From a bacterium (GTDB lineage Bacteria; Krumholzibacteriota; Krumholzibacteriia; LZORAL124-64-63), in assembly GCA_016719645.1 (NCBI GenBank), contig JADJYS010000014.1, forward strand, positions 69,467 to 133,466: 64,000 nucleotides of DNA, read 5' to 3'. Positions 8,679 through 64,000 of this stretch are shown here, piece after piece; within the stretch, counting starts at the first letter, position 1, and each line of letters starts with the position of its first letter. Below the pieces are notes generated by a model that ran no database searches, was not told where the DNA came from, and saw only the letters and a program-made list of their open reading frames with translations. The position numbers and the translations under genes were made by a program.

Positions 8679-8722
8679 CGGCCGTCGGCTGACGACCGGC
8701 GGCGAGACGCCGCGCCCGCGAG

Positions 8723-12260: not shown

Positions 12261-12346
12261 GGACCCATCCCTTCCGGTCGCCCTGGACTTGAGCTCGCAG
12301 ATTTGAAGTGTAGCATCCGCACGGTGACCGACCAAGTGCGGCCTAC

Positions 12347-25783: not shown

Positions 25784-25929
25784 CGGGCGGGCGCACCGCC
25801 CCGGAGGACCGATGACGCACCCGCACTCCGCACCGGCCCGCGCCGCCGCGTTCCTGATCGCGCTGGGAGGTCTCATGACGAACGACGCCGTGCCCGCCCG
25901 CGCCGCCGCGGCTCCCGCCCCGGCCCCCG

Positions 25930-31582: not shown

Positions 31583-32482
31583 CTAGTAGGAGAGCGGGCC
31601 GGTCCTGTGGACCCGGCCCGGCATCTCGCGTCCGAAATGCGCCGCGACCTCGCGGGCCACGGCGACGATCCCCTCGAGTCCGATCTCCGTGCGCAGGCCG
31701 CCGCGCCGCAGGGCGTGGACCAGATCCTCGGTGGCCACGTTGCCGGCCGCGACCTTGGTGAACGGGCAGCCGCCCAGGCCGGCGAACGAGGTCTCGAAGC
31801 TGGTGACCCCCGACTCCATCGCGGCGTGGATGTTGGCCATGCCGAGGCCGTAGGTGTCGTGGAAGTGGCACGTGCAGCGGATCTCCGGCGCGAGCTGCAG
31901 GATCTCGCCGAACAGCCGGCGCACCTGCGCCGGGTGCGCGTGGCCGGCGGTGTCGGCGAGGCTGATGTTCGTGAGCCCGGCCTCGAGGTAGGCGCGCACG
32001 ATGTCGAGGACCCGCTCCTGCGGGATCGGGCCCTCGAAGCCGCAGCCGAAGGCGCTCTGCACCGAGACCTGGACCCTCTTGCCGGCCGCGACCGCCTCGG
32101 CGGCCGCGGCGATGATGCGGCGCTGCGCCTCCGCGGAACCCATGCCGGTGTTCTTCAGGCTGTGGGTCTCGGAGGCCGAGACGCCGAGGCAGAACAGGTC
32201 GACGCCGCACGCGAGCCCGCGCTCGAGGCCCTTCTCGTTGAGCACGAGGCCCGAGAGGATCGTCCCGCCCCTGGACGCTGCGTCGAGGGCGCGGAAGAGC
32301 TCGTCCGTGTCGGCCATCTGCGGCACCTTTTCCGGGTGCACGAACGAGCCCACCTGGACGATGTCCAGGCCCGCGGCGACGAGCGACCGGATCCACGCGA
32401 GCTTCTGCCCGGTCGGGACGACCTGCTTCTCGGCCTGCAGCCCGTCCCGGAGGCCGACCTCGTGGATGATGATCTCGGCCAT
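31583..32482 (-). CDS. HMG-CoA lyase-like DRE-TIM metallolyase (hydroxyacyl-/citramalyl-CoA lyase family)
   Basis: MAEIIIHEVGLRDGLQ...CHFHDTYG. Confidence 0.85.
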   Translation of the reverse strand: MAEIIIHEVGLRDGLQAEKQVVPTGQKLAWIRSLVAAGLDIVQVGSFVHPEKVPQMADTDELFRALDAASRGGTILSGLVLNEKGLERGLACGVDLFCLGVSASETHSLKNTGMGSAEAQRRIIAAAAEAVAAGKRVQVSVQSAFGCGFEGPIPQERVLDIVRAYLEAGLTNISLADTAGHAHPAQVRRLFGEILQLAPEIRCTCHFHDTYGLGMANIHAAMESGVTSFETSFAGLGGCPFTKVAAGNVATEDLVHALRRGGLRTEIGLEGIVAVAREVAAHFGREMPGRVHRTGPLSY

Positions 32483-34706: not shown

Positions 34707-34757
34707 GGCGCGGCGATCGGCCGCCGGCCGCCCCCCGGGCGGGGCCGCCGCGGCTGA

Positions 34758-36278
34758 TTACCTCGCCAGGACCATCTTGCAGGCGGACCGCTCCGTGCCC
34801 GTCTTCACCTCGCAGAAGTAGACGCCGCTCGGCAGGGCGCGGCCTGCATCGTCACGGCCATCCCACCGCAACCTGATCACGCCGGCGGGACGGGACGCGT
34901 CGCTCAGCAGCACGCGCCGCAGCTTGCCGCCGGCATCGAAGACCCGCGCCGAAACCGGGGTGTCGGACGCCAGCGCGAATTCGATCTCGGTGGCGGGATT
35001 GAACGGGTTGGGGTTGGTCTTCACCGTGAGGCGCGCCGGGGGAACCGCCGCCGGCGCGCTGCCCGTGGGGTCGACGACGGGATCGAAGGCGTAGACCGCG
35101 CCCGCGTTGAGCGCGGTGTCGCTGTCCTTGCCGGCGCCGACCAGGACGCATCCGCCGTCGATGCCGACCGCGATGCCGAAATCGTCGTTCTGATTGCCGC
35201 CCGTGGCGGCCAGCCTCAGCAGCTCGGCGCCCGTCGCGACGTTGAAGACGTAGGACAACCCCGTCCGCGGCGTGCCGTAGCCCTGCTGGGTGGCGCCGAT
35301 CACGGCCAGATCGCCCGCGAGCGCGACGGAGCTGCCGAACCAGTCGGCGTAGTCCGCGTCCGCGGGGGTCAGCCTGTGCAGTTCCGCGCCGGTGGCGACG
35401 TCGAAGACGTAGGCCGCGCCGGCGTCTTCGTCCCCGCCGCCCCAGTAGGCGCCGACCAGCAGGGTGCGGCCGCAGATCGCCACCGCATTGCCGAAACGGT
35501 CGTAGGCGCCCCGGTCGCTGGCGGTCAGCCGCCAGAGCTCGACGCCGGTCCGCGGATCGAAGACGTAGACCGCGCCGCAGTCCGTCCTGCCGGGGGCGTC
35601 CCACATGGGAGCGCCGATCACCGCGAACGAGTCCGATACCGCCACCGCGTACCCGAACTGGTTCTGGCGGCCGAAGTCCGCGGCGACCAGCTTCCGCACC
35701 TGCACGCCGGTGTCCGGATCGAACAGGTACGCCGCGCCGCTGTCGTAGATCGAGACGCTGGCGTCGCAGTAGCGGGCGCCCACCAGGACGAACGAGTCCG
35801 AGACGGCCACGGCGCAGCCGAACTGGTCGTTCGCGGCGGCGTCGGCGGCCGTGAGCTTCCAGCGCTGGATCCCGTCGTCGGCCCCGAAGAGGTAGGCCGC
35901 GCCCGCATCGACGGCGGAGTGGTCGTCCCGCAGCGCGCCGATCACGGCACGCAGCCCGCGGAGCCCCACCGCGCAGCCGAAGTAATCGCCGCCGGCCGCG
36001 TCCGCGGCCCTCAGCTTGCGAGCCTGGACGTAACCGTCCAGGTCGAAGACGTAGGCGCAGCCGGAGTCGCCGCCGTCGTCGTCGTTCGCCTGGGCGCCGA
36101 TCAGGGCGAGTTCGCCCGACACGGCAAGGCTGATGCCGAAGCGGTCTCCGAGCGCCGCGTCGGCGGCCTGGATCCTGGTTTCGGTCGGCGTCGCCGACGC
36201 CGTGACGGCGCAGGCCAGACAGGCGAGGATGGTCGACGTCAAAAATCCGATGGGTGACTTCGCATCATCGTTCGACAT
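34758..36278 (-). CDS. Secreted FG-GAP-like repeat protein with C-terminal T9SS-like domain
   Basis: Repeated DxFGxAVAxxGxxxLIGA...YVFD units. C-terminus NPFNPATEIEFALASDTPVSARVFDAGGKLRRVL. Confidence 0.75.
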   Translation of the reverse strand: MSNDDAKSPIGFLTSTILACLACAVTASATPTETRIQAADAALGDRFGISLAVSGELALIGAQANDDDGGDSGCAYVFDLDGYVQARKLRAADAAGGDYFGCAVGLRGLRAVIGALRDDHSAVDAGAAYLFGADDGIQRWKLTAADAAANDQFGCAVAVSDSFVLVGARYCDASVSIYDSGAAYLFDPDTGVQVRKLVAADFGRQNQFGYAVAVSDSFAVIGAPMWDAPGRTDCGAVYVFDPRTGVELWRLTASDRGAYDRFGNAVAICGRTLLVGAYWGGGDEDAGAAYVFDVATGAELHRLTPADADYADWFGSSVALAGDLAVIGATQQGYGTPRTGLSYVFNVATGAELLRLAATGGNQNDDFGIAVGIDGGCVLVGAGKDSDTALNAGAVYAFDPVVDPTGSAPAAVPPARLTVKTNPNPFNPATEIEFALASDTPVSARVFDAGGKLRRVLLSDASRPAGVIRLRWDGRDDAGRALPSGVYFCEVKTGTERSACKMVLAR

Positions 36279-36378
36279 GGTTCCCCCCTATGAAAAATCC
36301 GATCGCATGCTGCCGCCCCGCGGATGTCCGGACGGGATGCGCCACGCTCATTCTACGCCCGCCGCACCGCAAACGGAA

Positions 36379-36410
36379 GACGGGGCCGCGTGCGATCACG
36401 CGGCCCCGTC
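36379..36410 (-). terminator. Hairpin GACGGGGCCGCGTG-cgat-CACGCGGCCCCGTC downstream of the BNR-repeat gene
   Basis: Perfect 14-bp stem, about 55 bp past the stop at 36465. Confidence 0.5.
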
Positions 36411-36464
36411 CCCTGGCGATTCCGGATGCCGAGAGGCGCCGGCGGCGGTGCGCCGGCAGCCGTC

Positions 36465-40695: not shown

Positions 40696-42146
40696 CGTCC
40701 CGCCTCCTTCTCCCGGAGCGCCGCCTTCGCGATGCCCTTCAGCATGCCGCCGAACACCAGCTGGTGGACCGGGTAGAGCGTGTACCAGTAGATCCGGCCG
40801 GGCAAGCCCACCGGATCGAAGATCGCGGTCTGGCGGATCGTCGCGGCCCGGCCGTCGCCCGTGACCTCGAACTCCAGCCACGCCCGCCCGGGCAGCTTCA
40901 TCTCGGCGGCGAGCCGCAGCCGGCGGCCGGGCTCCAGCGCCTCGACGCGCCACCAGTCGACGGCGTCGCCCACGCGCAACGTCGTCGGCGAGGCCCTCCC
41001 CCGCCTGACGCCCACGCCCCCGGCGAGCAGGTCGAGGAACCCCCGCAGCCGCCACAGGGGGTTCCACGCGTACCACCCCGCGGCGCCGCCGATCCTCTCG
41101 ATGGGCGCGAAGGCGGCCGCGGGCGCGGCCGGCACGTCCCTCGTGCGCGAATCGACCAGCCGGGAGCCGAACTGCACGCCGCCCCACGCCGGCGGCGCGC
41201 CCGACGAGGACAGGGCGTCGGACCAGCGCGTCGCCGCGTAGTGGCGCTCCTCGCTGGCGAAGGCCCGGCGCACCGCCTCCTCGACGCCCACCGGCCTCAC
41301 GGCGAAGGCCGTGAGCGCGGCGGCGTCCCGGACCACCGTGGGGTGGACGATGCTCTCGATGAGCTTGCGCCCGATCCGCGCGTACAGCGGCGTGACCAGG
41401 CCCAGCCACAGGCTGGACAGGTACGGGGTCAGGACCGGCACCGGGATCATGCGCAGCCGCAGCCCGCGGTGCCGCGCGTAGACGCGCATGATGTCCGCGT
41501 AGGACACCCGGTCGGCGCCGCCGATCTCGTACACGCGGCACGCGGCGACGGGCAGCGCCAGCCCGGCGGCCAGGTAATCCAGCAGGTCGTCGATCGCGAT
41601 GGGCTGGGCCGGCACCTTGACCCACTTCGGCGTGATCATGACCGGCAGGCGCTCCACCAGCGAACGGATCATCTCGAACGACAGGCTCCCGGAGCCGATG
41701 ACGATCGACGCGCGGAACTCCAGCACCGGCACGCCCGATTCCCGCAGGATCCGCCCGACCTCCTGGCGGCTGCGCAGATGGGGCGACAGCTCCTCCTCCT
41801 CGCAGCCCAGGCCGCCCAGGTAGATGATGCGCTCGACCCCCGCCGCCCTCGCCGCCGCGCCGAAGTTCCGCGCCGCCAGCCGGTCCGCCTCGACGAAGGA
41901 CCCGCTCGCGCCCATCGAGTGGACCAGGTAGAAGGCCGCGCGGATCCCGCGCAGGGCGGCGTCGAGGCTCGGCCGGTCCAGGACGTCCCCGGCGACGACC
42001 TCCGTCGACGGGCCGACCCGCGGCCGCAGCGCCTCCGGCCGCCTGGCCAGGCAGCGCAGCCGCAGGCCGCGTTCCTCCAGCAGCTTCAGCAGGCGGCCGC
42101 CGACGTAGCCGCTGGCGCCGGTCAGCAGGACGAGCCCGTCGTTCAC
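40692..42146 (-). CDS. NAD(P)H-binding NmrA/SDR-like protein fused to a DUF2867-like domain
   Basis: GTG start. LLTGASGYVGGRLL Rossmann motif. 4-bp overlaps with both neighbours. Confidence 0.7.
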   Translation of the reverse strand: MNDGLVLLTGASGYVGGRLLKLLEERGLRLRCLARRPEALRPRVGPSTEVVAGDVLDRPSLDAALRGIRAAFYLVHSMGASGSFVEADRLAARNFGAAARAAGVERIIYLGGLGCEEEELSPHLRSRQEVGRILRESGVPVLEFRASIVIGSGSLSFEMIRSLVERLPVMITPKWVKVPAQPIAIDDLLDYLAAGLALPVAACRVYEIGGADRVSYADIMRVYARHRGLRLRMIPVPVLTPYLSSLWLGLVTPLYARIGRKLIESIVHPTVVRDAAALTAFAVRPVGVEEAVRRAFASEERHYAATRWSDALSSSGAPPAWGGVQFGSRLVDSRTRDVPAAPAAAFAPIERIGGAAGWYAWNPLWRLRGFLDLLAGGVGVRRGRASPTTLRVGDAVDWWRVEALEPGRRLRLAAEMKLPGRAWLEFEVTGDGRAATIRQTAIFDPVGLPGRIYWYTLYPVHQLVFGGMLKGIAKAALREKEAGR

Positions 42147-42841
42147 GCGGGCACCTCGATCAGCACGAAGTCCGCACGCGCGCGCGCCTCGATGGCCAGG
42201 GGCCCCGCGGCCTCGATGCGGGCCTGGTCGTTCGCGTCCAGTTCCCGGCCGTCGACCAGCAGGCGCCCCTCCTTCACGTACACGAATCTCCGCCTGCCGG
42301 CGGCGGCCTCGTGCGTGACGACGCGGCCGGCCTCCAGGTCGCAGCGGTGGATGACGGCATCGGCGTTCAGGGTGACGGCGCCGGCGTCGCCCCGCCCGGA
42401 GGCGACGGCGTGCAGCCGGTTGCGCCGGTCGTCGGGGTCGAAGGTCCGCTGGTCGTAGGAGGGCGTCTGGCCCCGGCGCTCCGGGAAGATCCAGATCTGA
42501 TAGAGGTGGCAGGGCTCCGCGCCCAGGTTGTGCTCGGAGTGGGTCAGCCCCGAGCCGGCCGACATGCGCTGCACGTCGCCAGCGCCGATCACGGCCTGGT
42601 TCCCCATACTGTCCCGGTGGGTCACCTCGCCCCGCAGGACCAGCGTCACGATCTCCATGTCCCGGTGGGGATGCATCGGGAACCCCGTCCCGGGCGCGAC
42701 GATGTCGTCGTTGAACACGCGCAGGGAGCCCCAGCTCACGTTCGCGGGGTCGTGGTAGTCGGCGAAGGAAAAGAGCCAGTAGGACTGCAGCCAGCCGACG
42801 TCCGAGAAGTGGCGCCGGTCCGCCTTGACGATCTCGATCAT
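42143..42841 (-). CDS. Pirin-family protein
   Basis: HPHRDMEIVTLVLRGEVTHRDSMGN...HSEHN; 232 aa. Confidence 0.9.
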   Translation of the reverse strand: MIEIVKADRRHFSDVGWLQSYWLFSFADYHDPANVSWGSLRVFNDDIVAPGTGFPMHPHRDMEIVTLVLRGEVTHRDSMGNQAVIGAGDVQRMSAGSGLTHSEHNLGAEPCHLYQIWIFPERRGQTPSYDQRTFDPDDRRNRLHAVASGRGDAGAVTLNADAVIHRCDLEAGRVVTHEAAAGRRRFVYVKEGRLLVDGRELDANDQARIEAAGPLAIEARARADFVLIEVPA

Positions 42842-43365
42842 GCCTCACCCCCGCCGCGGGCGGCGAGGAGGTCGACGTACGCCCCTTCGACAAGCTGGTC
42901 CGCCCGGATGCCCAGCCCGTCCATCAACGCGTGCGCCTCGGCGATCCCCGCCGCAGCGTCCTCGTCGTCCCGCAGGACGACCTCCAGCTCCAGGAACTCG
43001 CCCAGCCCCTCGACGCGGTCCAGGTGCACGCGCGTGCGGCCGACGAGGTACACGGTGCGGTGCTTCACGACCCGGCCGGCCTCCCCGTGCGAGTGCGCCA
43101 GCAGTTCCCGCAGGGCGCCGGGCTCGGCGGTCGGCGCGATCAGGTAGGACGACTCCTTGGGGCCCCGCCGGTCGGCGCGGCGGTAGAAGATGAGTTCGCC
43201 GCGGTCGTCGGCGAAGGTGCGCAGCTTCAGCCGGCCGCCCGCGCACCGGAAGAACGTGTCGTCCTGGTCGATCTCCTCGGGACCGCCGGTCGCCAGGGCG
43301 GCGACCTTCGGCAGCAGTTCCGGGATGCCCGCGAGGCGGGCCTTGATCTCGATGTTCCGCGCCAA
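42838..43365 (-). CDS. CYTH-domain protein (class IV adenylate cyclase / triphosphatase-like)
   Basis: TTG start after GGAGGT. NIEIKARL...ELEVV pattern typical of CyaB/ThTPase. Confidence 0.65.
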   Translation of the reverse strand: MARNIEIKARLAGIPELLPKVAALATGGPEEIDQDDTFFRCAGGRLKLRTFADDRGELIFYRRADRRGPKESSYLIAPTAEPGALRELLAHSHGEAGRVVKHRTVYLVGRTRVHLDRVEGLGEFLELEVVLRDDEDAAAGIAEAHALMDGLGIRADQLVEGAYVDLLAARGGGEA

Positions 43366-43388
43366 CGCCCACCTCCGGCTGTTGCTCG

Positions 43389-43769
43389 CTACACGTCTTC
43401 CGGGATCAGGAACCAGCGCATGGCGGTCTCGAAGTTCGTGAACGCGTCCACGGAGAAGCCGCGGTTGTGCGAGCACGTCTCGAGGAAGGCCGCGGCGTCG
43501 AACGAGGCCCCCTCGTGCACGAGCAGCGCCACCTTGCGGCGGAAGGTGTCGCCGTGCGCGAACAGCTCCGACGCGAGCTGGTAGAGGTCGAACGTCGACA
43601 TGCGCCACTGCGTGTCCCGGAAGTCGATCAGCAGGTCGTAGTCCACGGGATGGCGGTCGGCCTTGGCGATGTCCACGAGGAGCTGCCGGCTCGTGGCCAT
43701 GTCGATGACCCCCTCGGGGGTGATCTCCAGGAAATCCCCGGTCGTGACGATCTTGATCTTGGTTGCCAT
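43389..43769 (-). CDS. Hypothetical protein (possibly a STAS-like fold)
   Basis: 126 aa of normal composition, between the GGDEF and CYTH genes. Confidence 0.5.
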   Translation of the reverse strand: MATKIKIVTTGDFLEITPEGVIDMATSRQLLVDIAKADRHPVDYDLLIDFRDTQWRMSTFDLYQLASELFAHGDTFRRKVALLVHEGASFDAAAFLETCSHNRGFSVDAFTNFETAMRWFLIPEDV

Positions 43770-43785
43770 GGGATAATCCTTCCCT

Positions 43786-44718
43786 TCAGGTAATGATGCG
43801 ATCCTGCCCGCCGGCCTCCGGCCCCGCCTCCGTGTCCGCGGCCACCAGGACGCGGTTCTTCCCGCTGCGCTTGACCCGGTAGAGCGCCGCGTCCGCCCTT
43901 TCCACGAGGTCCCGCGACGTCCCGGTCTGCTTCCCGCACGACGCCACGCCGATGCTGACGGTCACGGTCCGGCCGTCGGGCAGGCGTTCCGCCAGTTCCC
44001 GGTTCAGCCGGACGGCGATCGCGCCGGCCTCCGTCGCGCCGGTCATCGGCAGGATGACCGCGAACTCCTCGCCGCCGTAGCGGCAGCAGACGTCCGCCTC
44101 CCTGGAGACGCGCACCAGGGTCCTGCCCATCGCGGCCAGGATCCTGTCGCCCTGCCGGTGCCCGAAGGTGTCGTTGACCGCCTTGAAGTCGTCGATGTCG
44201 ACCAGGATCAGAGAAACCGGCGCGCCGTAGCGCACGTAGCGCCGCACCTCGAAGTCGATCTGCTGGTAGAAATAGGTGTGGTTGAAGAGGCCCGTCAGGC
44301 CGTCGCGCAGCGAGAGCTCGACGATCCCGTCGATGTGCTCTTCGTCCACCAGCGTGGCGGAATCCATGTAGGCCGTGATGTTCGACAGGTAGTCCAGGGC
44401 GGCGACGACGATCCTGACGTTCCGGCCCAGGATCCCGGACAGCTCGAATTTGTGGTGCAGGATCTTCCGCCAGTAGTCTTCGGCTTCGTCCGGCGAGAAG
44501 TACTGGTGCGTGATCGCGTAGAGGAGGTCGGAATAGAAACTCCGGCCGCGGCTCCGTTCCAGGTCGTCGAGCAGGACCTTTTCGGCAGCCGAGAGCGGCC
44601 GGTCCCCGGCCAGGGCGGACACCAGGTCCAACGAGAGCGCGCCGAGGCCCAGGATCCACCAGCGGCGATCGGCGTCGGCCTCGTCGGCGGGCGGCGGCAG
44701 GTCGTGCGGGTCCGTCAT
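43786..44718 (-). CDS. Diguanylate cyclase (GGDEF domain; GGEEF variant) with N-terminal sensory region
   Basis: RYGGEEF active-site motif and DIDDFKAVND. Confidence 0.85.
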   Translation of the reverse strand: MTDPHDLPPPADEADADRRWWILGLGALSLDLVSALAGDRPLSAAEKVLLDDLERSRGRSFYSDLLYAITHQYFSPDEAEDYWRKILHHKFELSGILGRNVRIVVAALDYLSNITAYMDSATLVDEEHIDGIVELSLRDGLTGLFNHTYFYQQIDFEVRRYVRYGAPVSLILVDIDDFKAVNDTFGHRQGDRILAAMGRTLVRVSREADVCCRYGGEEFAVILPMTGATEAGAIAVRLNRELAERLPDGRTVTVSIGVASCGKQTGTSRDLVERADAALYRVKRSGKNRVLVAADTEAGPEAGGQDRIIT

Positions 44719-44785
44719 GAGGGGTCCCTCCCTTTCCGCGCCGTAGGCGCCGCCGCCCATCGCGGGCCCGCGACGGCGGTGGCGG

Positions 44786-45472
44786 TCAGACGACCGCGCC
44801 GAACAGCTTCCCGACCGCCGCCGTGCACGCCATGGCCACCGCGCCCCAGAAGGCGACCCGCGCAGCCCCGCGCGCGATCGTGGCGCCGCCGAGACGCGCC
44901 GCCGTTCCCCCCAGGACGAGCAGCAGGACCAGGGTCGAGGCCGCGACCACCGGGGTGAGCCGGGCGGAGGGGATGAACGCGGCGAGGAGCGCCGGCGGCG
45001 CCGCCCCCGCGGCGAAGGAAGCCGCCGAGGCCAACGCGGCCTGGAGCGGACGGGCCCGCGTCGCCTCGTGGATGCCGAGCTCGTCCCGGGCGTGGGCGCC
45101 CAGGGCGTCGTGGGCCATCAACTGGTCCGCCACCGCGAGCGCCAGTTCCGGGTCGAGCCCGCGGCCGGCGTAGATCCCCGCCAGTTCGGCCCGTTCGGCT
45201 TCCGGGGAGTCGGCGAGCTCATGCCGCTCCCGGACGAGGTCGGCCTGCTCGGTGTCCGCCTGGGAGCTGACCGAGACGTACTCTCCGGCGGCCATCGAGA
45301 GGGTGCCGGCCACGAGACCCGCGACGGCCGCCACCAGCACGGCCGCGCGCTCCGGCTCGGCCGCGGCCACGCCCACCACCAGGCTGCTCGTGGAGATCAG
45401 GCCGTCGTTGGCGCCCAGGACGGAGGCTCGTAGCCAGCCGATCCGGTCGCTGCGGTGCTTTTCGCCGTGCAT
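44786..45472 (-). CDS. VIT1/CCC1-family iron/manganese transporter
   Basis: GANDGLISTSSLVVGV and EYVSVSSQ motifs. Transcribed divergently from the Fur-family gene. Confidence 0.8.
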   Translation of the reverse strand: MHGEKHRSDRIGWLRASVLGANDGLISTSSLVVGVAAAEPERAAVLVAAVAGLVAGTLSMAAGEYVSVSSQADTEQADLVRERHELADSPEAERAELAGIYAGRGLDPELALAVADQLMAHDALGAHARDELGIHEATRARPLQAALASAASFAAGAAPPALLAAFIPSARLTPVVAASTLVLLLVLGGTAARLGGATIARGAARVAFWGAVAMACTAAVGKLFGAVV

Positions 45473-45567
45473 GGCTGTCTCCGTTCTTGGCCTGCCGCCG
45501 CTGGGGCGTGCTCACCAATATACTCACAACCGGAGCTGGGCGATCCTGCAGCGGTCCACCGCGCACC

Positions 45568-45596
45568 TTGACAGGCTCTCAAGTTATGGGTATATT
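45568..45596 (+). promoter_or_regulatory. Sigma70-type promoter TTGACA-17 bp-TATATT for the Fur-family gene
   Basis: Exact -35 consensus with a 17-bp spacer. About 40 bp upstream of ATG 45635. Confidence 0.55.
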
Positions 45597-45626
45597 CCTA
45601 TTTGCGGTTCACTATTAAATAGGAAT
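45594..45626. promoter_or_regulatory. Operator-like inverted repeat ATTCCTATTT-N13-AAATAGGAAT overlapping the -10 box and transcription start
   Basis: Perfect 10-bp arms read directly. Its position suggests autoregulation, and the VIT1 gene may also be controlled from here. Confidence 0.4.
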
Positions 45627-45634
45627 GAACATAC

Positions 45635-46138
45635 ATGATCGATCATTCTGAAATCCAGGGTCGTCTCGAGAAGTTCCAGGCGGCCGCCAAGGCGGCCGGC
45701 GTCAAACTGACGCACCAGCGCCTGGAGATCTTCCGCGAAGTCGCCGCGAGCCAGGAGCACCCGGACGCCGAGGCCGTCTTCCGCACCGTGAAGACCCGCC
45801 TGCCGACGGTGTCGCTGGACACCGTGTACCGGACGCTCTGGCTGCTCCACGACCTCGGCCTGGTCGCCACGCTCGGGCCGCGCCGCGGGAGCGTGCGCTT
45901 CGACGCCAACCTCGACCCGCACCACCACTACGTCTGCGTGCGCTGCGGCCTGGCGCGCGACTTCACCAGCGCCGAGCTCGACGCGCTGGACATCCCCGCC
46001 GCCGTGAACTCGTTCGGAAGCATCGTCGCCGCGCACGTCGAGGTGCGGGGCGTCTGCCGGGACTGCGCCGCGAGATCCGCCGCGGCGGAGCCCGCCGCCG
46101 CCTCCCCGCCGGAACAGGAAGCGAGGAGAGAGACATGA
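45635..46138 (+). CDS. Fur-family transcriptional regulator (peroxide-responsive PerR/CatR-like, inferred from catalase linkage)
   Basis: HQRLEI...[12 protein letters not shown] metal-site motifs. The stop overlaps the ATG at 46135. Confidence 0.85.
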
Positions 46139-46196
46139 CAAGAAGAAGAAGCTGACCACCAACGCCGGCGCCCCCGTCGCCGACAACCAGAACCTC

Positions 46197-47594
46197 ATGA
46201 CCGCGGGCCCGCGCGGTCCGGCGCTGCTGCAGGACGTGTGGTACCTGGAGAAGCTCGCCCACTTCGACCGCGAGGTGATCCCCGAGCGCCGCATGCACGC
46301 CAAGGGCTCGGGCGCCTTCGGCGCCTTCACGGTCACCCACGACATCAGCCGGCACACCCGGGCGAAGCTCTTCGCGGCCGTCGGCAAGAAGACCGACCTG
46401 TTCGTCCGCTTCTCGACCGTGGCCGGGGAACGCGGCGCGGCCGACGCCGAGCGCGACATCCGCGGCTTCGCGATCAAGTTCTACACCGAGGAGGGCAACT
46501 GGGACCTCGTCGGCAACAACACGCCGGTCTTCTTCCTGCGCGACCCCCTGAAGTTCCCCGACCTCAACCACGCGGTGAAGCGCGACCCGCGCACCAACCT
46601 GCGCAGCGCCCGCAACAACTGGGACTTCTGGACCTCGCTGCCCGAGGCGCTGCACCAGGTCACCATCACCATGAGCGACCGCGGCATCCCCGCCTCCTAC
46701 CGCCACATGCACGGCTTCGGCAGCCACACCTTCAGCTTCCTCAACGCGGCGAACGAGCGCACCTGGGTCAAGTTCCACCTCGTCAGCCAGCAGGGCATCC
46801 GCAACCTGACCGACGCCGAGGCCGAGGCGGTCGTCGGCAAGTGCCGCGAGAGCCACCAGCGCGACCTGTTCGACAGCATCGAGAAGGGCGACTTCCCGCG
46901 CTGGAAGCTGTTCGTCCAGCTGATGCCCGAGCGGGACGCCGCGGCCTGCCCCTACAACCCCTTCGACCTGACCAAGGTCTGGTTCAAGAAGGACTACCCG
47001 CTGCACGAGGTGGGCGTCCTGGAGCTGAACCGCAACCCCGAGAACTACTTCGCCGAGGTGGAGCAGGCGGCCTTCAACCCCGCCAACGTCGTGCCCGGCA
47101 TCGGCTTCTCGCCGGACAAGATGCTGCAGGGGCGGCTGTTCTCCTACGGCGACGCCCAGCGCTACCGGCTCGGCGTCAACCACCACCTGATCCCGGTGAA
47201 CGCCGCGCGCTGCCCCTTCCACAGCTACCACCGCGACGGGGCCATGCGCGTCGACGGCAACCACGGCGGCACGCTCGGCTACGAGCCCAACAGCTATGGC
47301 GAGTGGCAGCAGCAGCCCGATTTCTCGGAGCCGCCGCTGGCCCTCGACGGGGCCGCCGCCCACTGGAACCACCGCGAGGACGACGACTACTATTCTCAGC
47401 CGGGCCTCCTGTTCCGGCTGATGGGCGCGGCGCAGCGGCAGGCGCTCTTCGAAAACACCGCCCGCGCGATGGGCGACGCGCCCCGCGAGATCAAGCTGCG
47501 CCACATCGCCAACTGCGCGAAGGCCGACCCGGCCTACGGGGCCGGCGTGGCCGCAGCGCTCGGCATCCCCCCGGGCGAGGCGCCCCGGGACTGA
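46197..47594 (+). CDS. katA: Monofunctional haem catalase (N-terminus unresolved, see findings)
   Basis: [13 protein letters not shown]-like region, [20 protein letters not shown] and [12 protein letters not shown] motifs. The conserved N-terminal [18 protein letters not shown] is encoded upstream in this frame, but without an in-frame start codon. Confidence 0.9.
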
Positions 47595-47639: not shown

Positions 47640-48143
47640 ATGGGAACCAGAGGACGCGAGATCATCGGCATGGACGTCGATCATCTCCTGGACCTGCTCA
47701 ACCGGGCCTACGCGAGCGAGTGGCTGGCCTACTACCAGTACTGGCTCGGCGCGAAGCTCATCAAGGGCCCGATGAAGGACGCCGTGGCGGCGGAGCTGAA
47801 CCTGCACGCCACCGAGGAGCTGAACCACGCCGTCATGCTGTCGGGCCGCATCATCCAGCTCGGCGGCACGCCGGTGCTCACGCCCGAAGGCTGGGCGAAG
47901 CTGAGCCCCTGCAAGTACGACGCGCCCGAGGACCCGTACGTGGCCGTCCTGCTCGACCAGAACATCGAGGGCGAGCAGTGCGCGATCACCACGTACAAGG
48001 CCCTGATGGACGCCACCAAGGACAAGGACATGGTGACCTACAACCTGGCGCTCGCGATCCTCGAGCAGGAGATCGAGCACGAGGAGGACCTGCAGAGCCT
48101 GCGGGAGGATCTGGACCTGATGGTGGTGCGGGGGAGCAAGTAA
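47640..48143 (+). CDS. Ferritin-like protein (bacterioferritin/Dps superfamily)
   Basis: AAAGGAAG SD. Four-helix ferritin-like pattern LNRAYASEW...ELNHAVML...EGEQ...LEQEIEHEEDL. Confidence 0.7.
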   Translation: MGTRGREIIGMDVDHLLDLLNRAYASEWLAYYQYWLGAKLIKGPMKDAVAAELNLHATEELNHAVMLSGRIIQLGGTPVLTPEGWAKLSPCKYDAPEDPYVAVLLDQNIEGEQCAITTYKALMDATKDKDMVTYNLALAILEQEIEHEEDLQSLREDLDLMVVRGSK

Positions 48144-58836: not shown

Positions 58837-59126
58837 GGCGATTTCCCCCGGTGGCAGGACCGACTCCATCCCCGGCGTTCCGTCGACAGGCGCGTTCGAG
58901 CCGCCGAGGCCGCCGGAGACATGCGGGCGAACGGGCAGTCTACCACCACTCGGGAACAATAGGACTAATTTAATCCTTATTACAGGATAAGGTGCTGATC
59001 GAATTCCGGATCTCGAAGACGCTCGTTCAGTTGCGCGAGCCGCCCTGTTCGGCGTTAGGCGTGATGATCATCGATCATTCGCTCATCTTTGATAGCATCG
59101 AGATATCCGCACATCCGGCCCTGTGC

Positions 59127-59885
59127 CTACCTGTAGAGCACCTTGAGTTGACCCCAGTTCGCCGCTTCCTCGTGGACGTCCGTGACGGGCACGGCCCGCG
59201 ACCGGCCGTCGATCAGGTTGAACTCGAACCGCAGCTTGGCCTGCGGCGCCGTCGTCTCGAAGATGAAGTTGTCGCCGATGAACATGTTGTAGTGGACGCC
59301 CAGATTGCAGTAGTCCCAGGTGCCGACGACACGGAACTTGTACTCGTAGACTCCCGGGGCGCCGATCGTCACGTCGGTGAACCAGCCCGCCTCCCCCGTC
59401 TCGACCGGAACGCCGGTCAGCCAGTCGCCCAGTTCGGGCGCGCCGCCGATCAGCTCGAACTCGAATCCCGGTGTGAGGCTGATGTGGTCGCAGGCGACGG
59501 CGTTGGTCGCCGGCTGCCAGCCGCCGCCCAGCGTGTTGGTGTCGAGCCGGAAGTGGATCACGTCGCCGGGGTATTCCAGGTAGAGGACGGCGTTGGCCAG
59601 CGGGTGCATCCCATTGAACGGGTAGCTCTCGGACCAGTCGGCCGTGGCGATCTTCCAGCCGTGGCTGCCGGGAGCCTGGTCCGCGGTCACGAAGGCGCCG
59701 TGCACGCCGTCGTCCGCCGCGCCGTCGCCGTGCTGGCCGTCGTCGAACAACTCGTTGCCGGCATCGCAGCTCCAGATCCCGCCCGTGCCGGCGTAGAAGG
59801 TGCCGCGGGCATAGAAGGGACCGGCGAGCGCCGGGGCCGCGGCCGCGAACAGCAACAGGATCCAGGGAAGTGCCCTTGTCTTCAC
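59127..59885 (-). CDS. Secreted protein with CBM-like beta-sandwich region ending in the WGxLKVLYR tail
   Basis: GTG start 9 nt after GGAGG. Signal peptide ...AAAPALA-GP. C-terminus EEAANWGQLKVLYR*. Confidence 0.7.
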   Translation of the reverse strand: MKTRALPWILLLFAAAAPALAGPFYARGTFYAGTGGIWSCDAGNELFDDGQHGDGAADDGVHGAFVTADQAPGSHGWKIATADWSESYPFNGMHPLANAVLYLEYPGDVIHFRLDTNTLGGGWQPATNAVACDHISLTPGFEFELIGGAPELGDWLTGVPVETGEAGWFTDVTIGAPGVYEYKFRVVGTWDYCNLGVHYNMFIGDNFIFETTAPQAKLRFEFNLIDGRSRAVPVTDVHEEAANWGQLKVLYR

Positions 59886-59905
59886 GGCGGTCAACCTCCC
59901 GGTGC

Positions 59906-60835
59906 TCAGATTCCCGGCGTCGTCGACAGATAGAGCGCCTTGATGGCGCCCCAGTCGATGCTCTCGTCCATCGGCGCGGACGACCGCGCCGCCGAGAGCC
60001 CGACGACCAGTTCCTGGTGGCCGATCAGGTAGAAGTGGCAGCGGGTGCCGCCGCCGGGCTGCGCTTCTGCCATCGCCTTCACGTAGAACCGCTGCAGCGA
60101 GAACACCGTGATGGTGCTCGGATCTTCGGTGTCCAGATCGAAGACGACCCGCACCTCGAAGAAGGCCTGCGTGGCGTAGGGAAAGTAGGGGTCGTTCCCG
60201 GGAGCGACATCCCAATCGGAGAAGCGCACGAGCCGCTCGAACTCGACGTCGCGCACGCCGACCATCGGCTCGCCGCCGGGGCCGTGCCCCGGCTCGCCGG
60301 CGAACATGTTGGCCGTGGACTGGAGGTCCTCGGCGCGCGTGTAAACGCCGCTCGGAGGCGCCGCGGAGCTCCCCTCGGCGAAGACGAAGCGGAAGTCCGG
60401 GTGCAGGGCGGCGCCGTACTCGCCGAGGTCCATCTCGTCGTAGGCGTTGCGGAAGTTGGTCATGAGCTGCTGCGGGGTGTCGGGGAACGGGAAGCGGTCG
60501 ACGTAGGTCCCGGCGAACTCGACCTCCTCGCCGGCGGCCAGCGCCTGGGTCGCCGTCGCGGGTTCGGGAGCCGACCAGCCGGCCACGTCCCCCCAGGCGA
60601 GCGTGTAGTCGCCCGGGGCGAGATCCGCGAACGTCGCGTCGCCGGATCCCGACTGCGCGTAACCGTCCGGTCCCGTCACCTGCCACGGCGCCGCGAGGTC
60701 GTCGGGCGTGGCGTCGATCGCCAGCGTGCCGGTCAGCGGCACGACGGGCTGATGTTCATCGCCACAGCCGACGGCGACGGCGACGGCGAACGCCACCACG
60801 AGCATGCCGCGCGCGCACCGGAAGGGCCTGTGCAT
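59906..60835 (-). CDS. Lipoprotein, paralogue of 63084..63740, ending in the WGAIKALY tail
   Basis: AVAVAVGCGDE lipobox. Shared FPDTPQQLM..FRNAY...LHPDFRFVFA...STITV..LQRFYV motifs. C-terminus ESIDWGAIKALYLSTTPGI*. Start from the ORF-track frame. Confidence 0.7.
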   Translation of the reverse strand: MHRPFRCARGMLVVAFAVAVAVGCGDEHQPVVPLTGTLAIDATPDDLAAPWQVTGPDGYAQSGSGDATFADLAPGDYTLAWGDVAGWSAPEPATATQALAAGEEVEFAGTYVDRFPFPDTPQQLMTNFRNAYDEMDLGEYGAALHPDFRFVFAEGSSAAPPSGVYTRAEDLQSTANMFAGEPGHGPGGEPMVGVRDVEFERLVRFSDWDVAPGNDPYFPYATQAFFEVRVVFDLDTEDPSTITVFSLQRFYVKAMAEAQPGGGTRCHFYLIGHQELVVGLSAARSSAPMDESIDWGAIKALYLSTTPGI

Positions 60836-61087
60836 GGTTCCCCCCTCACGTCGATCATGATGGGCGATGAGTCCATGTCTCAATGACGATCATACACGAA
60901 TGAGAAGCAACCTGCACGACCGGCCCCAGGGCTGTTAATAACCGCCGCACCGCGCGGACGGCGCTTCGTCCGTCGTGCGGCGACTGGCAACGCACCGCCC
61001 GATCGGGTAGAATCGCCGTCTCCCGCGCGGTTCCCCGACGCCGTCGGCGGCGGGACCGATCACGACGCGGGACGATCGGAGGGTCCC

Positions 61088-62338
61088 GTGACCGCTTCCC
61101 TGACGCGTCCGCTCCTCACCGTCGCCCCCTGCCTGCTGTGCCTGCTGCTCGCCTGCTCCGACGGCGCGCCCGTCGTCGAGGACGAGGACACGGACACGAC
61201 CCCGCCCGACGCGATCACCGACCTGATCGCCCTGAACCCGACCTCGCAGTCGGCCACGCTGTATTGGACGGCCCCCGCCGACCGCCGCGACGACGGCGCG
61301 GACGGTTCGGTCGTCGCCTACGACCTGCGGGTGGCGGACGCCACGATCACCGAAGACAACTTCGACCAGGCGCGGGCGGTGGCAGGCGTCCCGGCGCCGG
61401 CGACGCCGCAGCTGATCCAGAGCCTGATCGTGACCGGGCTGACCCCGGGCGCCGCCAGCCACTTCTCGCTGCGGTCGCGCGACGCCGAGGGGAACTGGAG
61501 CGCCGTCTCCGACTGCCCCCACGTCGACTGCACGGCGCCCGTGGCCGTGGAATTCCCCGACCCCGGCCTGGAGCAGGCGATCCGCGCGCACGTCCACCGG
61601 CCGGCCGGCGGGCTGACCTCGTCGGACGTGGACACCATCCTGCACTTCACGGCCGCGGGAGCCGGGATCGCCGACCTGTCGGGGATGCAGGCCTGCCTGT
61701 CGCTGCGGACCGCCCGCCTGAGCGACAACGACATCGCCGGGCTCGAACCGCTGCGGCACCTGATCGACCTGCGCGGACTCTACCTGGACACGAACGCGGT
61801 GAGCGACCTGGAACCGCTCGCCGGCCTGCTGGACCTCCAGCAGCTCCACCTCACCTGGAACCCAGTCACCGACCTCTCGCCGCTGGTCATGCTGCAGCAG
61901 ATCCGGCAGCTGACCCTCTCGGGCACCGTCATCGCCGACTACACGCCGCTGACCTTCCTGGGGTACCTCAACGACCTCTACCTCGGCGACATGGAGCTGC
62001 AGAACATCGACTTCCTGGTGAACCTGCGCCAGCTGCGCCTGCTCAACCTGGAGATCAACCACATCCAGTCGCTGGAGGCGCTCCGGTACCACGACATGAT
62101 CGAGTCGCTCAACCTGATGCAGAACGGCATCGTGGATCTCGCACCGCTGGCCGGATTGACGAACCTGCGGAACCTGAACCTGGCCGGCAACCTCGTGGCC
62201 GACCTGCAGCCGCTGCTCGACAACGCGGGCCTGGGAGCGGGCGACGCCGTGGACCTCAGGAACAACCCGCTCTCGGCGCAGGCGCTGGCGGTGCAGGTGC
62301 CCGCGCTGGAGGGGCGCGGGGTGGTCGTGCAGCATTGA
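61088..62338 (+). CDS. Lipoprotein with fibronectin-III-like domain and leucine-rich repeats (internalin-like LRR)
   Basis: GTG start after GGAGGG. LLLACSDG lipobox. Repeated LxxLxxLxLxxNxIxDLxPL units. Confidence 0.8.
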   Translation: MTASLTRPLLTVAPCLLCLLLACSDGAPVVEDEDTDTTPPDAITDLIALNPTSQSATLYWTAPADRRDDGADGSVVAYDLRVADATITEDNFDQARAVAGVPAPATPQLIQSLIVTGLTPGAASHFSLRSRDAEGNWSAVSDCPHVDCTAPVAVEFPDPGLEQAIRAHVHRPAGGLTSSDVDTILHFTAAGAGIADLSGMQACLSLRTARLSDNDIAGLEPLRHLIDLRGLYLDTNAVSDLEPLAGLLDLQQLHLTWNPVTDLSPLVMLQQIRQLTLSGTVIADYTPLTFLGYLNDLYLGDMELQNIDFLVNLRQLRLLNLEINHIQSLEALRYHDMIESLNLMQNGIVDLAPLAGLTNLRNLNLAGNLVADLQPLLDNAGLGAGDAVDLRNNPLSAQALAVQVPALEGRGVVVQH

Positions 62339-62399
62339 TCGCGGCTCGGGACGACCGACGGCGCGCGGCACCTCGTCCGTATGCGGATGACCAGAACAT

Positions 62400-62946
62400 T
62401 CACCGATAGAGCGCCTTGACCTCGCCCCAGCAGAGCTCCTCCACGGGTTCGGGATAGTACAGCCACCCCATCCCTCCGCTCGCGGAAATCCAGCCCGTCC
62501 CGTCCGCGGCGTCGACCAGGACGACGGCATCGTCGGGATGGGGCAGGACTTCGACGTCGTAGACGAGGCCCTGACCGAAGACGATGAAATCGCCCTCCCC
62601 CAGCAGGACGATCCCGGTGTTGTCCGCGACGAGCACCGGCTCGTAGTCGACCTGGACGCCGGTCTCCGGGGGAGCCGGAGACCGTGGACGGCGGGAGCGA
62701 GAGGCTGTCGGCGTGCACGAACACGTGCGGGTCCGTCTCCAGCCGGAACCGCGCGGCGCCCACCTGTTCGAGATTCCTGGCGACGAGATAGAAGCGGACG
62801 GCGCTGAATGAGCTGGAGTAGTGCCCCCAGACGATCGTGCCGGCCTCGTCGAAGTACACCCCGAGGCTCGGATGGCCGCGCGGCTGGGCGCTGCCGGACG
62901 CAGCCGCCAGCATGGTCAAGACGGCGACGACGAGACTCCTCCTCAC
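62400..62946 (-). pseudogene. Small secreted protein with WGEVKALYR tail, interrupted by a frameshift in a G5/C5 homopolymer
   Basis: N-terminal part (GTG 62946, signal peptide MRRSLVVAVLTMLAAASGSAQP) and C-terminal part (...CWGEVKALYR*) are in different frames. Removing one base of the GGGGG run at ~62668..62672 restores a single ~181-aa ORF. Confidence 0.6.
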
Positions 62947-63083
62947 GGGAACACCTCCGTTGTCCGGTGGATCCGTACGCGTCCGTCTATTCGGAACGCA
63001 GCGCCGCACGGGCGCAGGTCATTGTCGGCATGGTCGGCGCCTTTCGATGGAGTACCGCGATGGTGGTCCAGGAATGGATCGTA

Positions 63084-63740
63084 TCATCTGTCCGGCGGCG
63101 AGTAGATCGCCTTGACCGATCCCCAGCTCATCGCCTCGCTCGACAGGAGGAGCGCGGCCGGATCCTCGGGCCCGTAATCCCGTTGTCCGATCAGGCTGCA
63201 ACGCAGGCGGGCCGGGCCGTCCCGCCGGACGACGGGTTCCGAAACGACATAGAAGTCCTGCCGGGAATCGATCGTGATCGTGCTGTGCGCGGGCGTGTCC
63301 AGCAGCAGGACGATCTGCACGTCGTAGACGGCCCGGCGGGAACCCGGGAACCGGGGGTCGTCCAGCGGCACGTCCAGCCAGTCGGTCCGGCGTTCGAAGC
63401 GATAGATGTCGATGCCGAGAACCCCGGGTTTCGGCCAGCCCTCGAAATCCCATCCCTGCTCCCCGTCGAACATGCGCCCGGAGGTGGCGAGCTCCTGCTC
63501 GCGTGTGAAGGCGCCGCCGGGGGGCGCGACGGGGCTGTCCGCCGCGAACACGAAGGTGAAATCCGCGTGCAGCGCGTCGCGGTACCCGTCGATGTCCCTC
63601 TCGCCGTAGGCTTGGCGGAAATCCGCCATGAGCTGGTCCGGCGTCTCGGGGAACGGGATCGGATCCACTTCCGCTGGTCCGTCGCCGCCGCAGCCGGCCA
63701 GGACGGCGACGAGCAGGACGGCATGCTTCCAGGCGGGCAT
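63084..63740 (-). CDS. Lipoprotein, paralogue of 59906..60835, ending in the WGSVKAIY tail
   Basis: GGGAGGG SD. LLVAVLAGCGG lipobox. FPETPDQLMADFRQAY...LHADFTFVFA...STITI..RQDFYV. C-terminus EAMSWGSVKAIYSPPDR*. Confidence 0.75.
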   Translation of the reverse strand: MPAWKHAVLLVAVLAGCGGDGPAEVDPIPFPETPDQLMADFRQAYGERDIDGYRDALHADFTFVFAADSPVAPPGGAFTREQELATSGRMFDGEQGWDFEGWPKPGVLGIDIYRFERRTDWLDVPLDDPRFPGSRRAVYDVQIVLLLDTPAHSTITIDSRQDFYVVSEPVVRRDGPARLRCSLIGQRDYGPEDPAALLLSSEAMSWGSVKAIYSPPDR

Positions 63741-63757
63741 GGTCGACCCTCCCCCGG

Positions 63758-64000
63758 TCAGCGCTTCACGAGCTCCACGCGCCGGTTCCTGGCGCGCCCT
63801 TCTTCCGTGTCGTTGGCGGCGACGGGCGCCAGGGGCCCCACGCCGTGCCCCGCCAGCCGCGCCGCGGCGATGCCGTGCCGGGAGACGAGCGCCTGGACCA
63901 CGGCCTCCGCCCTGGCCCGCGACAGCGCCAGGTTGGCGTCCAGCTGGCCCACCATGTCCGTGTGGCCCACGACCAGGAGCGTCAGGCCCGAGTCCTGACC
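63758..64000 (-). CDS. OmpA-family protein, C-terminal peptidoglycan-binding domain (partial; 5' end beyond the window)
   Basis: ...GQLDANLALSRARAEAV...NRRVELVKR*. The ORF continues open to the window edge. Confidence 0.7.
   Translation of the reverse strand, partial: GQDSGLTLLVVGHTDMVGQLDANLALSRARAEAVVQALVSRHGIAAARLAGHGVGPLAPVAANDTEEGRARNRRVELVKR

What the first reader, a model, noticed from the sequence alone, without database searches (positions are those of the whole stretch)
46130..46200. Catalase N-terminus out of frame with its only plausible start codon
The conserved catalase N-terminal segment [27 protein letters not shown] is encoded from 46137 in the catalase frame. No start codon precedes it in that frame. 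The ATG at 46135 overlaps the Fur-family stop (ATGA) and has a good context, but it is in the +1 frame (ATG ACA AGA AGA AGA AGC TGA). Inserting a single A at 'acaag', to give 'acaaag', would yield [15 protein letters not shown].... So either one base is missing beside the short A/G run, or translation begins at the internal Met 46197 and loses 20 conserved residues. Together with the two cases above, this makes three 5' frameshifts, two in homopolymer runs and this one beside a short A/G run. That pattern argues for systematic indel errors (long-read or flow-based chemistry) in this assembly, or less likely a biological slippage mechanism.
Basis: seen in the sequence. Interest (0 to 1): 0.5.

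Follow-up and report, generated by a model that had tools for sequence, protein, structure and literature searches.

The report
Catalase start broken by missing base
The catalase gene has lost one G right after its start codon. This is most likely a consensus error in a Nanopore-based metagenome assembly, because three close relatives all carry the G and the same window has two more frameshifts private to it.

Summary
ATG 46135 overlaps the stop of the Fur-family gene (ATGA) and sits 6 nt after an AGGAG. It reads ATG ACA AGA AGA AGA AGC TGA. The catalase body is in the -1 frame and has no ATG, GTG or TTG before Met 46197.

All 80 catalase homologues fetched start at an ATG 2-10 codons before KKLTT. 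Three close relatives (two sister MAGs and one short-read contig) read ATGACGAAGAAG, giving [15 protein letters not shown]. The window reads ATGAC-AAGAAG, so one G is missing between 46139 and 46140.

Exact protein matches place the window on a 144,327-bp MAG contig, where the catalase is annotated as the 465-aa ORF from Met 46197. Its sister MAGs come from a Nanopore R9.4.1, CANU and medaka catalogue that had one Illumina polishing round.

The window has two more private frameshifts, at 25929 and at 62668-62672, both in C/G runs. Each sister MAG has different private frameshifts. The two short-read contigs I could compare are intact at the catalase junction and at 62668-62672.

There is no slippery heptamer, no downstream RNA structure and no conservation of the shift.

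Verdict: assembly artefact (about 0.8). A real recent deletion is the main rival (about 0.17). Interest is low.

The parts
45568..45596 (+). Promoter-like site (TTGACA, 17 nt, TATATT) upstream of the Fur-family gene
   Evidence: It matches 11 of 12 consensus positions. One site was found against 0.1 expected in shuffles.
45594..45626 (.). Perfect 10-nt inverted repeat (ATTCCTATTT / AAATAGGAAT, 13 nt apart) overlapping the -10 hexamer. It is a candidate operator of the Fur-family (PerR-like) repressor.
   Evidence: In relatives both arms change together (TTCCTATCTG / CAGATAGGAA), so the palindrome is kept. The operator function is inferred.
45635..46138 (+). Fur-family regulator gene (167 aa). 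It is closest to PerR models but scores below their cut-offs.
   Evidence: PF01475 at E 5.6e-24. Best NCBIfam hits are PerR models, below cut-off. The protein is identical to MBK9304435.1.
46124..46128 (+). Shine-Dalgarno AGGAG, 6 nt before ATG 46135
   Evidence: Read directly from the sequence. It is identical in three relatives.
46135..46137 (+). Authentic catalase start codon, overlapping the Fur-family stop (ATGA)
   Evidence: Relatives start their 486-aa catalase at this ATG. All 80 homologues start 2-10 codons before KKLTT.
46139..46140 (+). Site of the missing G. The window reads AC|AAG where relatives read ACGAAG.
   Evidence: It is the only gap in a 2,494-bp alignment at 98.7% identity. 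A four-way alignment shows it too.
46135..46155 (+). Out-of-frame mini-ORF MTRRRS* created by the deletion. Its TGA (46153-46155) overlaps CTG 46152 of the catalase frame.
46140..47594 (+). Body of a small-subunit, clade-3-like heme catalase. It is in frame from codon 3 to the stop and has no other lesion.
   Evidence: PF00199 and PF06628. Best solved structures are 2isa, 4e37 and 1m85, aligned from residue 2-4. Against JADJEG there are 8 synonymous and 7 conservative differences and no stop.
46197..47594 (+). The ORF as annotated in the source record (465 aa, from the internal Met)
   Evidence: It is an exact match to MBK9304436.1, 'MAG: catalase [bacterium]', on a contig of 144,327 bp. It starts at Pfam profile position 16.
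47640..48143 (+). Ferritin-like / DPS-like gene, third gene of the cluster
   Evidence: PF00210. It resembles DPS models but scores below their cut-offs. It is identical to MBK9304437.1 and MBK6900857.1.
25929..25929 (+). Second private frameshift of this assembly. An extra G in CCCCCGG separates the signal peptide from the body of the M28 peptidase.
   Evidence: The source annotates a 418-aa protein, where relatives have 457 aa.
62668..62672 (-). Third private frameshift. A run of 5 C (minus strand), where the intact homologue has 4, splits a 181-aa secreted protein.
   Evidence: The intact 181-aa version (P0051), from a short-read assembly, reads straight across the junction.

Best explanation
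The catalase gene is an ordinary, intact gene in the organism. It starts at ATG 46135 and is translationally coupled to the upstream Fur-family (PerR-like) gene through an ATGA overlap. It encodes [15 protein letters not shown]..., a 486-aa protein.

The deposited consensus has dropped the G of codon 2 (ACG), beside the (AAG)4 tract. That puts the start codon out of frame. The annotation pipeline therefore fell back to the next in-frame ATG (46197) and produced a 465-aa protein.

Shown here:
- the base is missing relative to all close relatives;
- the start site is conserved;
- the same assembly carries other private frameshifts;
- the sister MAGs are Nanopore-based.

Inferred:
- the window's own MAG comes from the same Nanopore pipeline;
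- the deletion is absent from the reads.
For: (1) All 80 homologues start at an ATG 2-10 codons before KKLTT.

(2) Three close relatives have ACGAAG in frame, with the same SD and the same ATGA overlap: JADJEG (98.7% identity), JADJIV, and short-read contig SRR13131472. The 60 nt around the site are otherwise identical.

(3) The window matches proteins MBK9304418, MBK9304435, MBK9304436, MBK9304437 and MBK9304451 of one 144,327-bp MAG contig. Its sister MAGs JADJEG and JADJIV are listed in the Singleton 2021 catalogue as Krumholzibacteriota. That catalogue was built from Nanopore R9.4.1 reads with CANU, Racon, two rounds of medaka and one Illumina Racon round (PMC8012365).

(4) The window has two more frameshifts private to it, both in C/G runs and both intact in relatives: 25929 and 62668-62672. 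That is 3 of about 55 genes.

(5) The sister MAGs each carry different private frameshifts. JADJEG has them in Pirin and Iso_dh. JADJIV has an extra G at about nt 247 of this same catalase, and no gene is called there.

(6) The rest of the catalase is undamaged: 8 synonymous and 7 conservative changes against JADJEG.

(7) The tract varies in length in the population. The short-read contig has a 3-nt in-frame insertion at the same spot. Consensus callers often fail at such places (my own knowledge).
Against: The missing G is not inside a homopolymer, which is the classic Nanopore error site; it lies between C and an A/G triplet repeat. I did not see the reads. The link between the window's own MAG and the Nanopore project rests on its sister MAGs and on accession and annotation style, not on a record title. 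Two of three sister MAGs have this same gene broken at different sites, which could also be read as repeated real loss.
Confidence: 0.8

Rival explanations
1. The 1-bp deletion is real in the sampled population. The catalase would then be a very recent pseudogene. At best it would give a low-level enzyme lacking 20 N-terminal residues, made from Met 46197 (or from CTG 46152) by ribosomes that terminate at TGA 46153-46155 after the six-codon MTRRRS leader and restart downstream.
For: The sequence as deposited says so. A sister MAG also has this gene disrupted, at another site, which would fit relaxed need for catalase. The leader's stop overlaps CTG 46152 and lies 42 nt before ATG 46197. The catalytic residues lie downstream of Met 46197.
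Against: Each of the three sister assemblies has its own private frameshifts in unrelated genes, at roughly one per 13 kb where they could be compared, while the two short-read contigs compared are intact at their sites. That pattern is what errors give, not selection. There is no second lesion in 1,455 nt, and the amino-acid changes are conservative. No SD precedes 46197. The lost residues are positions 1-15 of the Pfam domain. They also align to residues 2 onward of solved catalase chains.
Confidence: 0.17
2. Programmed recoding: ribosomes start at ATG 46135 and slip -1 on the A AGA AGA AGA tract to make full-length catalase.
For: The required shift is -1. A slip after ACA would give exactly MTKKKKL.... 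AGA codons are rare in this genome, where 1% of third positions are A.
Against: There is no X XXY YYZ heptamer in the zero frame. The RNA downstream folds no better than shuffled sequence (z = +0.72; 153 of 200 shuffles fold at least as well). The shift is not conserved, since all three close relatives and all 80 homologues are in frame.
Confidence: 0.02
3. The gene naturally starts at Met 46197 (or at a non-canonical codon), and the upstream KKKKLTT... reading is a coincidence.
For: The source annotation uses 46197. One database catalase of 467 aa begins at the same Met.
Against: That 467-aa entry begins 9 nt from a contig end. The Met position is M, L, V, I, A or Q in homologues. The upstream 20 codons match homologues and Pfam positions 1-15.
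Confidence: 0.01

Closest known systems
Residual indel errors in Nanopore R9.4.1 metagenome assemblies, which produce split or 5'-truncated gene calls
   Same: A single-base indel private to one assembly. Sibling assemblies carry different private indels. Most are in short C/G runs. The short-read contigs compared are intact. The annotation falls back on a downstream start.
   Different: This particular deletion is beside a triplet repeat, not in a homopolymer. No read-level proof was obtained here.
Small-subunit (clade 3) monofunctional heme catalases, such as those of Proteus mirabilis (1m85), Pseudomonas aeruginosa KatA (4e37) and Vibrio salmonicida (2isa)
   Same: Length of 486 aa. Full PF00199 and PF06628 matches. 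Alignment from residue 2-4 to the C-terminus at E values down to 1e-273.
   Different: None at the protein level once the G is restored. As deposited, the first 20 residues are out of frame.
Peroxide-stress clusters in which a Fur-family PerR-type repressor sits next to catalase and a Dps/ferritin gene
   Same: Gene order is Fur-family, catalase, ferritin-like. There is one strong promoter-like site, and a palindrome overlaps its -10.
   Different: The regulator and the ferritin-like protein score below the NCBIfam PerR and DPS cut-offs. The palindrome is not the Bacillus Per box. Regulation was not tested.
Programmed -1 ribosomal frameshifting (for example dnaX and IS elements)
   Same: Only the direction of the shift that would be needed.
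   Different: No slippery heptamer, no stimulatory structure and no conservation.

Membership tests
Long-read consensus indel artefact | The indel is private to one assembly and absent from close relatives | tested here: met
   JADJEG, JADJIV and the SRR13131472 contig all have ACGAAG. The window has AC-AAG.
Long-read consensus indel artefact | The same assembly carries other private frameshifts, mostly in homopolymers | tested here: met
   25929 (CCCCCGG, +1) and 62668-62672 (C5 against C4, +1). Both are intact in relatives.
Long-read consensus indel artefact | Sibling assemblies from the same pipeline carry different private frameshifts | tested here: met
   JADJEG has them in the Pirin 5' end and in Iso_dh. 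JADJIV has an extra G at catalase nt ~247, and no gene is called there.
Long-read consensus indel artefact | The assembly was made from error-prone long reads | tested here: inconclusive
   Shown for the sister MAGs JADJEG and JADJIV (PMC8012365 methods and supplementary file 5). For the window's own MAG (MBK93044xx, locus tag IPM94_) this is inferred, because I did not see its record title.
Long-read consensus indel artefact | Reads disagree with the consensus at the site | not testable with these tools
   No read data are available here.
Clade-3-like monofunctional heme catalase | Full-length Catalase core domain plus the catalase-related C-terminal domain, about 480-500 aa in all | tested here: met
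   With the G restored: PF00199 positions 1-382 of 383 (E 5e-189) and PF06628. As deposited, only positions 16-382 are covered.
Clade-3-like monofunctional heme catalase | Closest solved relatives are small-subunit catalases, aligned end to end | tested here: met
   2isa, 4e37 and 1m85, with query residues 3/4 to 479/481 aligned. I made no phylogenetic placement into clades.
Clade-3-like monofunctional heme catalase | Catalytic distal His and Asn and the proximal Tyr are present | tested here: met
   The motifs [18 protein letters not shown] and [14 protein letters not shown] are present in the ORF and conserved in the alignment to 2isa. Which residue is catalytic comes from my own knowledge of catalase structures.
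Programmed -1 ribosomal frameshift site | Slippery heptamer X XXY YYZ in the zero frame | tested here: not met
   ATG ACA AGA AGA AGA AGC TGA contains none.
Programmed -1 ribosomal frameshift site | Stimulatory RNA structure a few nucleotides downstream | tested here: not met
   The region 46135-46260 folds at -39.6 kcal/mol, against a shuffle mean of -42.5 (z = +0.72).
Programmed -1 ribosomal frameshift site | The two-frame arrangement is conserved in relatives | tested here: not met
   All three close relatives and all 80 homologues are in one frame.
Translational coupling by ATGA stop/start overlap | The upstream stop overlaps the downstream start, with an SD inside the upstream gene, and the arrangement is conserved | tested here: met
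   ATGA at 46135-46138 and AGGAG at 46124-46128. Gene calls overlap by 4 nt in JADJEG and in the Logan contig. Coupling itself was not measured.
PerR (peroxide-sensing Fur-family repressor) | Score above the NCBIfam PerR equivalog cut-off | tested here: not met
   The best hit is NF052545 PerR at 92.5 bits, against a cut-off of 180. The protein is a Fur-family member (PF01475) that is PerR-like by best hit and by gene context only.

The most novel reading that the evidence does not exclude
The deletion is real in this Krumholzibacteriota population. The cell would still make some catalase by termination-reinitiation: ribosomes coupled from the Fur-family gene translate the six-codon leader MTRRRS, stop at TGA 46153-46155, and restart at the overlapping CTG 46152 or at ATG 46197. 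The product would lack the N-terminal arm. Together with the independently broken copy in the sister MAG, this would point to ongoing loss or down-tuning of catalase in this lineage.
Probability: 0.03. Interest if true: 0.4.

Novelty: not a real feature. Interest (0 to 1): 0.08.

Why it matters
The main value is as a quality flag. The deposited protein MBK9304436.1 (465 aa) is very probably a 5'-truncated call of a normal 486-aa catalase. At least two other genes in this 64-kb window are also broken by single-base indels: MBK9304418.1, and the fragment MBK9304451.1. Anyone using this MAG or its sisters for gene content, pseudogene counts, signal-peptide prediction or start-site statistics should expect roughly one frameshift per 10-20 kb. 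If the deletion were real, it would be an ordinary young pseudogene.

Tried and rejected
(1) Exact look-ups of the window's 465-aa catalase and of its Fur protein with the look-up of encoding contigs found nothing. The source contig seems not to be served by that tool. The listing of cluster members later showed that both proteins exist, as MBK9304436.1 and MBK9304435.1.

(2) A metagenome-wide scan for the junction 40-mer, with or without the extra base, found nothing.

(3) The look-up of the EamA protein, meant to extend the comparison upstream of 25343, failed because the protein is not identical in the relative. As a result, window positions 1-25342 and 58862-64000 were not compared base by base with a relative. 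There I relied on a frame-aware scan of my own.

(4) GC3 frame switches at 11040, 11490, 13745, 29067, 32487, 40702-44787, 58226, 59927 and 4677 looked like possible frameshifts. All turned out to be ordinary adjacent or overlapping genes with their own starts and stops.

(5) The cluster of gaps at 32366-32390 is an in-frame divergent stretch shared with a short-read contig, not a frameshift.

(6) The 467-aa catalase P0013, which seemed to start at the internal Met, is cut by a contig end.

(7) I looked for -1 frameshift signals and found none.

(8) The synonymous/nonsynonymous count (8 to 7) is too small to separate error from a recent deletion.

Full report
**Observation**

The region reads ...AGGAGAGAGAC ATG ACA AGA AGA AGA AGC TGA CC....
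- The Fur-family ORF 45635..46138 ends with TGA at 46136-46138, which overlaps ATG 46135-46137.
- From that ATG the product is MTRRRS*.
- The catalase frame is open from 46008 and reads ...[30 protein letters not shown].
- That frame has no ATG, GTG or TTG before 46197, and only a CTG at 46152.

The description is therefore accurate. A small correction is that KKKK starts at 46140.

**Where orthologues start**

A scan of one genome per species returned 80 catalase loci at 77-86% protein identity from many phyla. In every one, the ORF starts at an ATG 2-10 codons before the (K)KLT motif. One example is [27 protein letters not shown] in L023. The residue equivalent to Met 46197 is M, L, V, I, A or Q, so it is not a conserved start.

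With the N-terminus restored, Pfam Catalase is matched from profile position 1. The 465-aa ORF begins at position 16. Solved small-subunit catalases (2isa, 4e37, 1m85) align from their residue 2. One 467-aa database catalase that begins at this Met is a gene nt from a contig end.

**Close relatives**

The ferritin-like protein just downstream is identical to one on JADJEG010000052.1. Across the Fur-family, catalase and ferritin-like genes, that contig is 98.7% identical to the window over 2,494 bp. The alignment has a single gap: ATGACGAAGAAG there, ATGAC-AAGAAG here. Its catalase is 486 aa, starts [15 protein letters not shown] and overlaps the Fur-family stop by ATGA.

A second sister MAG (JADJIV) and a short-read contig (Logan SRR13131472) also carry the G. 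The short-read contig has in addition an in-frame 3-nt insertion at the same spot (ATGAAGACGAAG). The purine tract therefore varies in length in nature.

**Source and technology**

Five window ORFs are exact matches to proteins of one 144,327-bp contig of a MAG labelled 'bacterium':

| Window ORF | Matching protein |
|---|---|
| Fur-family regulator | MBK9304435.1 |
| Catalase, 465 aa from Met 46197 | MBK9304436.1 |
| Ferritin-like | MBK9304437.1 |
| M28 peptidase, 418 aa | MBK9304418.1 |
| Fragment, 78 aa | MBK9304451.1 |

The sister MAGs JADJEG (Aved_18-Q3-R54-62_MAXAC.406) and JADJIV (Ejby_18-Q3-R6-50_BAT3C.246) are listed in supplementary file 5 of Singleton et al. 2021 as Krumholzibacteriota, order LZORAL124-64-63. 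That catalogue was assembled from Nanopore reads with CANU and polished with Racon. It then had two rounds of medaka (r941 model) and one round of Racon with Illumina reads. That the window's own MAG comes from the same project is an inference.

**Other frameshifts**

I compared about 26 kb of the window with JADJEG. The net frame-changing indels inside genes were:

| Site | Which assembly is broken | Detail |
|---|---|---|
| 46140 | window | The catalase deletion. |
| 25929 | window | An extra G in CCCCCGG cuts the signal peptide off the M28 peptidase. The source has 418 aa, relatives 457 aa. |
| 33450 | JADJEG | JADJEG lacks an A. Its Iso_dh gene is broken and has no gene call; the window's copy is intact. 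|
| 42737-42749 | JADJEG | The 5' end of JADJEG's Pirin gene is shifted. The window and JADJIV are intact. |

JADJIV has an extra G at about nt 247 of this same catalase, and no gene is called there.

A frame-aware scan of the whole window found only one further unexplained frame switch, at the G5 run 62668-62672. That switch splits a small secreted protein. An intact 181-aa version from a short-read assembly reads ...STVSGSPETGVQVDYEP... straight across the junction.

So the window has three private frameshifts in about 55 genes. Each sister assembly has different ones. The two short-read contigs compared are intact at their sites.

**Biological alternatives**

Full-length catalase from ATG 46135 would need a -1 shift. 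There is no X XXY YYZ heptamer. The downstream RNA folds no better than shuffles (z = +0.72). The arrangement is not conserved. No SD precedes ATG 46197.

The rest of the gene carries 8 synonymous and 7 conservative differences from JADJEG and no other lesion. That fits either an error or a very recent mutation.

A real deletion cannot be excluded without reads. In that case the gene would be a young pseudogene, or would give a small amount of a product lacking 20 N-terminal residues by reinitiation after the six-codon leader.

**Context**

The three genes form a peroxide-stress-type cluster of a Fur-family regulator, a catalase and a ferritin-like protein. A strong promoter-like site lies upstream (45568-45596). 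A perfect 10-nt palindrome overlaps its -10, and its arms change together in relatives.

The regulator is closest to PerR models and the ferritin-like protein to DPS models. Both score below the curated cut-offs, so these are resemblances and not memberships.

**Verdict**

The best explanation is a dropped G in a long-read consensus (about 0.8). A real recent deletion is the main rival (about 0.17). Recoding, or a natural internal start, is very unlikely. Interest is low, and the useful outcome is a correction to the annotation.

Noticed in passing
window 25812-27186 (+), site 25929: The M28/M20-family peptidase has an extra G in CCCCCGG. The first 39 codons (MTHPHSAPARAAAFLIALGG..., signal-peptide-like) are in another frame than the body. 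The source annotates a 418-aa protein from GTG 25930, where relatives have 457 aa.
   Followed up: yes
window 62400-62945 (-), site 62668-62672: A small secreted protein is split by a C5 run (C4 in the intact 181-aa homologue P0051 from a short-read assembly). Only the 78-aa C-terminal fragment is annotated in the source (MBK9304451.1).
   Followed up: yes
window 6463-7155 (-), 62400-62636 (-), 63084-63740 (-): Three otherwise dissimilar secreted or lipoprotein-like ORFs end in a shared C-terminal motif, (S)WG(T/S/E)(I/V)KA(L/I)Y. No Pfam or NCBIfam family matched the one I tested. It may be a lineage-specific C-terminal sorting or anchoring tag.
   Followed up: partly
window 45594-45626: A perfect 10-nt palindrome overlaps the -10 of the Fur-family/catalase promoter. 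In three relatives both arms carry matching changes (TTT/AAA becomes TCTG/CAGA), so the symmetry is preserved. It is a likely repressor operator.
   Followed up: partly
L083 (JADJEG010000052.1) 8686-10000 and 17183-17320: The sister MAG has its own private frameshifts. Iso_dh (isocitrate/isopropylmalate dehydrogenase family) is split at GGGG-AAGG and has no gene call. The 5' end of Pirin is shifted, so it is called as 191 aa instead of 232 aa.
   Followed up: yes
L088 (JADJIV010000026.1) about 3247: The third sister MAG has an extra G (GTCCGGTCGG) at about nt 247 of the same catalase, and no gene is called between the Fur-family and ferritin-like genes. It is an independent break of the same gene at another site.
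   Followed up: yes
L089 (Logan SRR13131472) 1718-1730: The short-read contig has an in-frame 3-nt insertion at catalase codon 2 (ATGAAGACGAAG, giving MKTKKK...). The purine tract at the start of this gene therefore varies in length in natural populations.
   Followed up: partly
window 43378-45650 and 34712-36450: Compared with JADJEG, the window carries two extra segments. One holds a small ORF, a GGDEF diguanylate cyclase (43786-44760, -) and a VIT1 iron transporter (44786-45472, -), directly upstream of the Fur-family gene. The other holds a 507-aa ORF (34758-36278, -). JADJEG in turn has about 890 bp (two small genes, one of them YtxH) after the ferritin-like gene, where the window has 95 bp.
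   Followed up: partly
window 32366-32390: A 25-nt patch in the HMGL-like gene aligns to JADJEG only with six small gaps. It is an in-frame stretch of 8-9 divergent codons, and it is identical to a short-read contig (L084). This looks like real allelic or recombinant variation, not an error.
   Followed up: yes
window 8723-12300 (-): Three overlapping genes look like a xanthine dehydrogenase / CO dehydrogenase-type trio (FAD-binding, 2Fe-2S and molybdopterin subunits). This is judged from the translations only. Their frame switches are normal start/stop overlaps.
   Followed up: no
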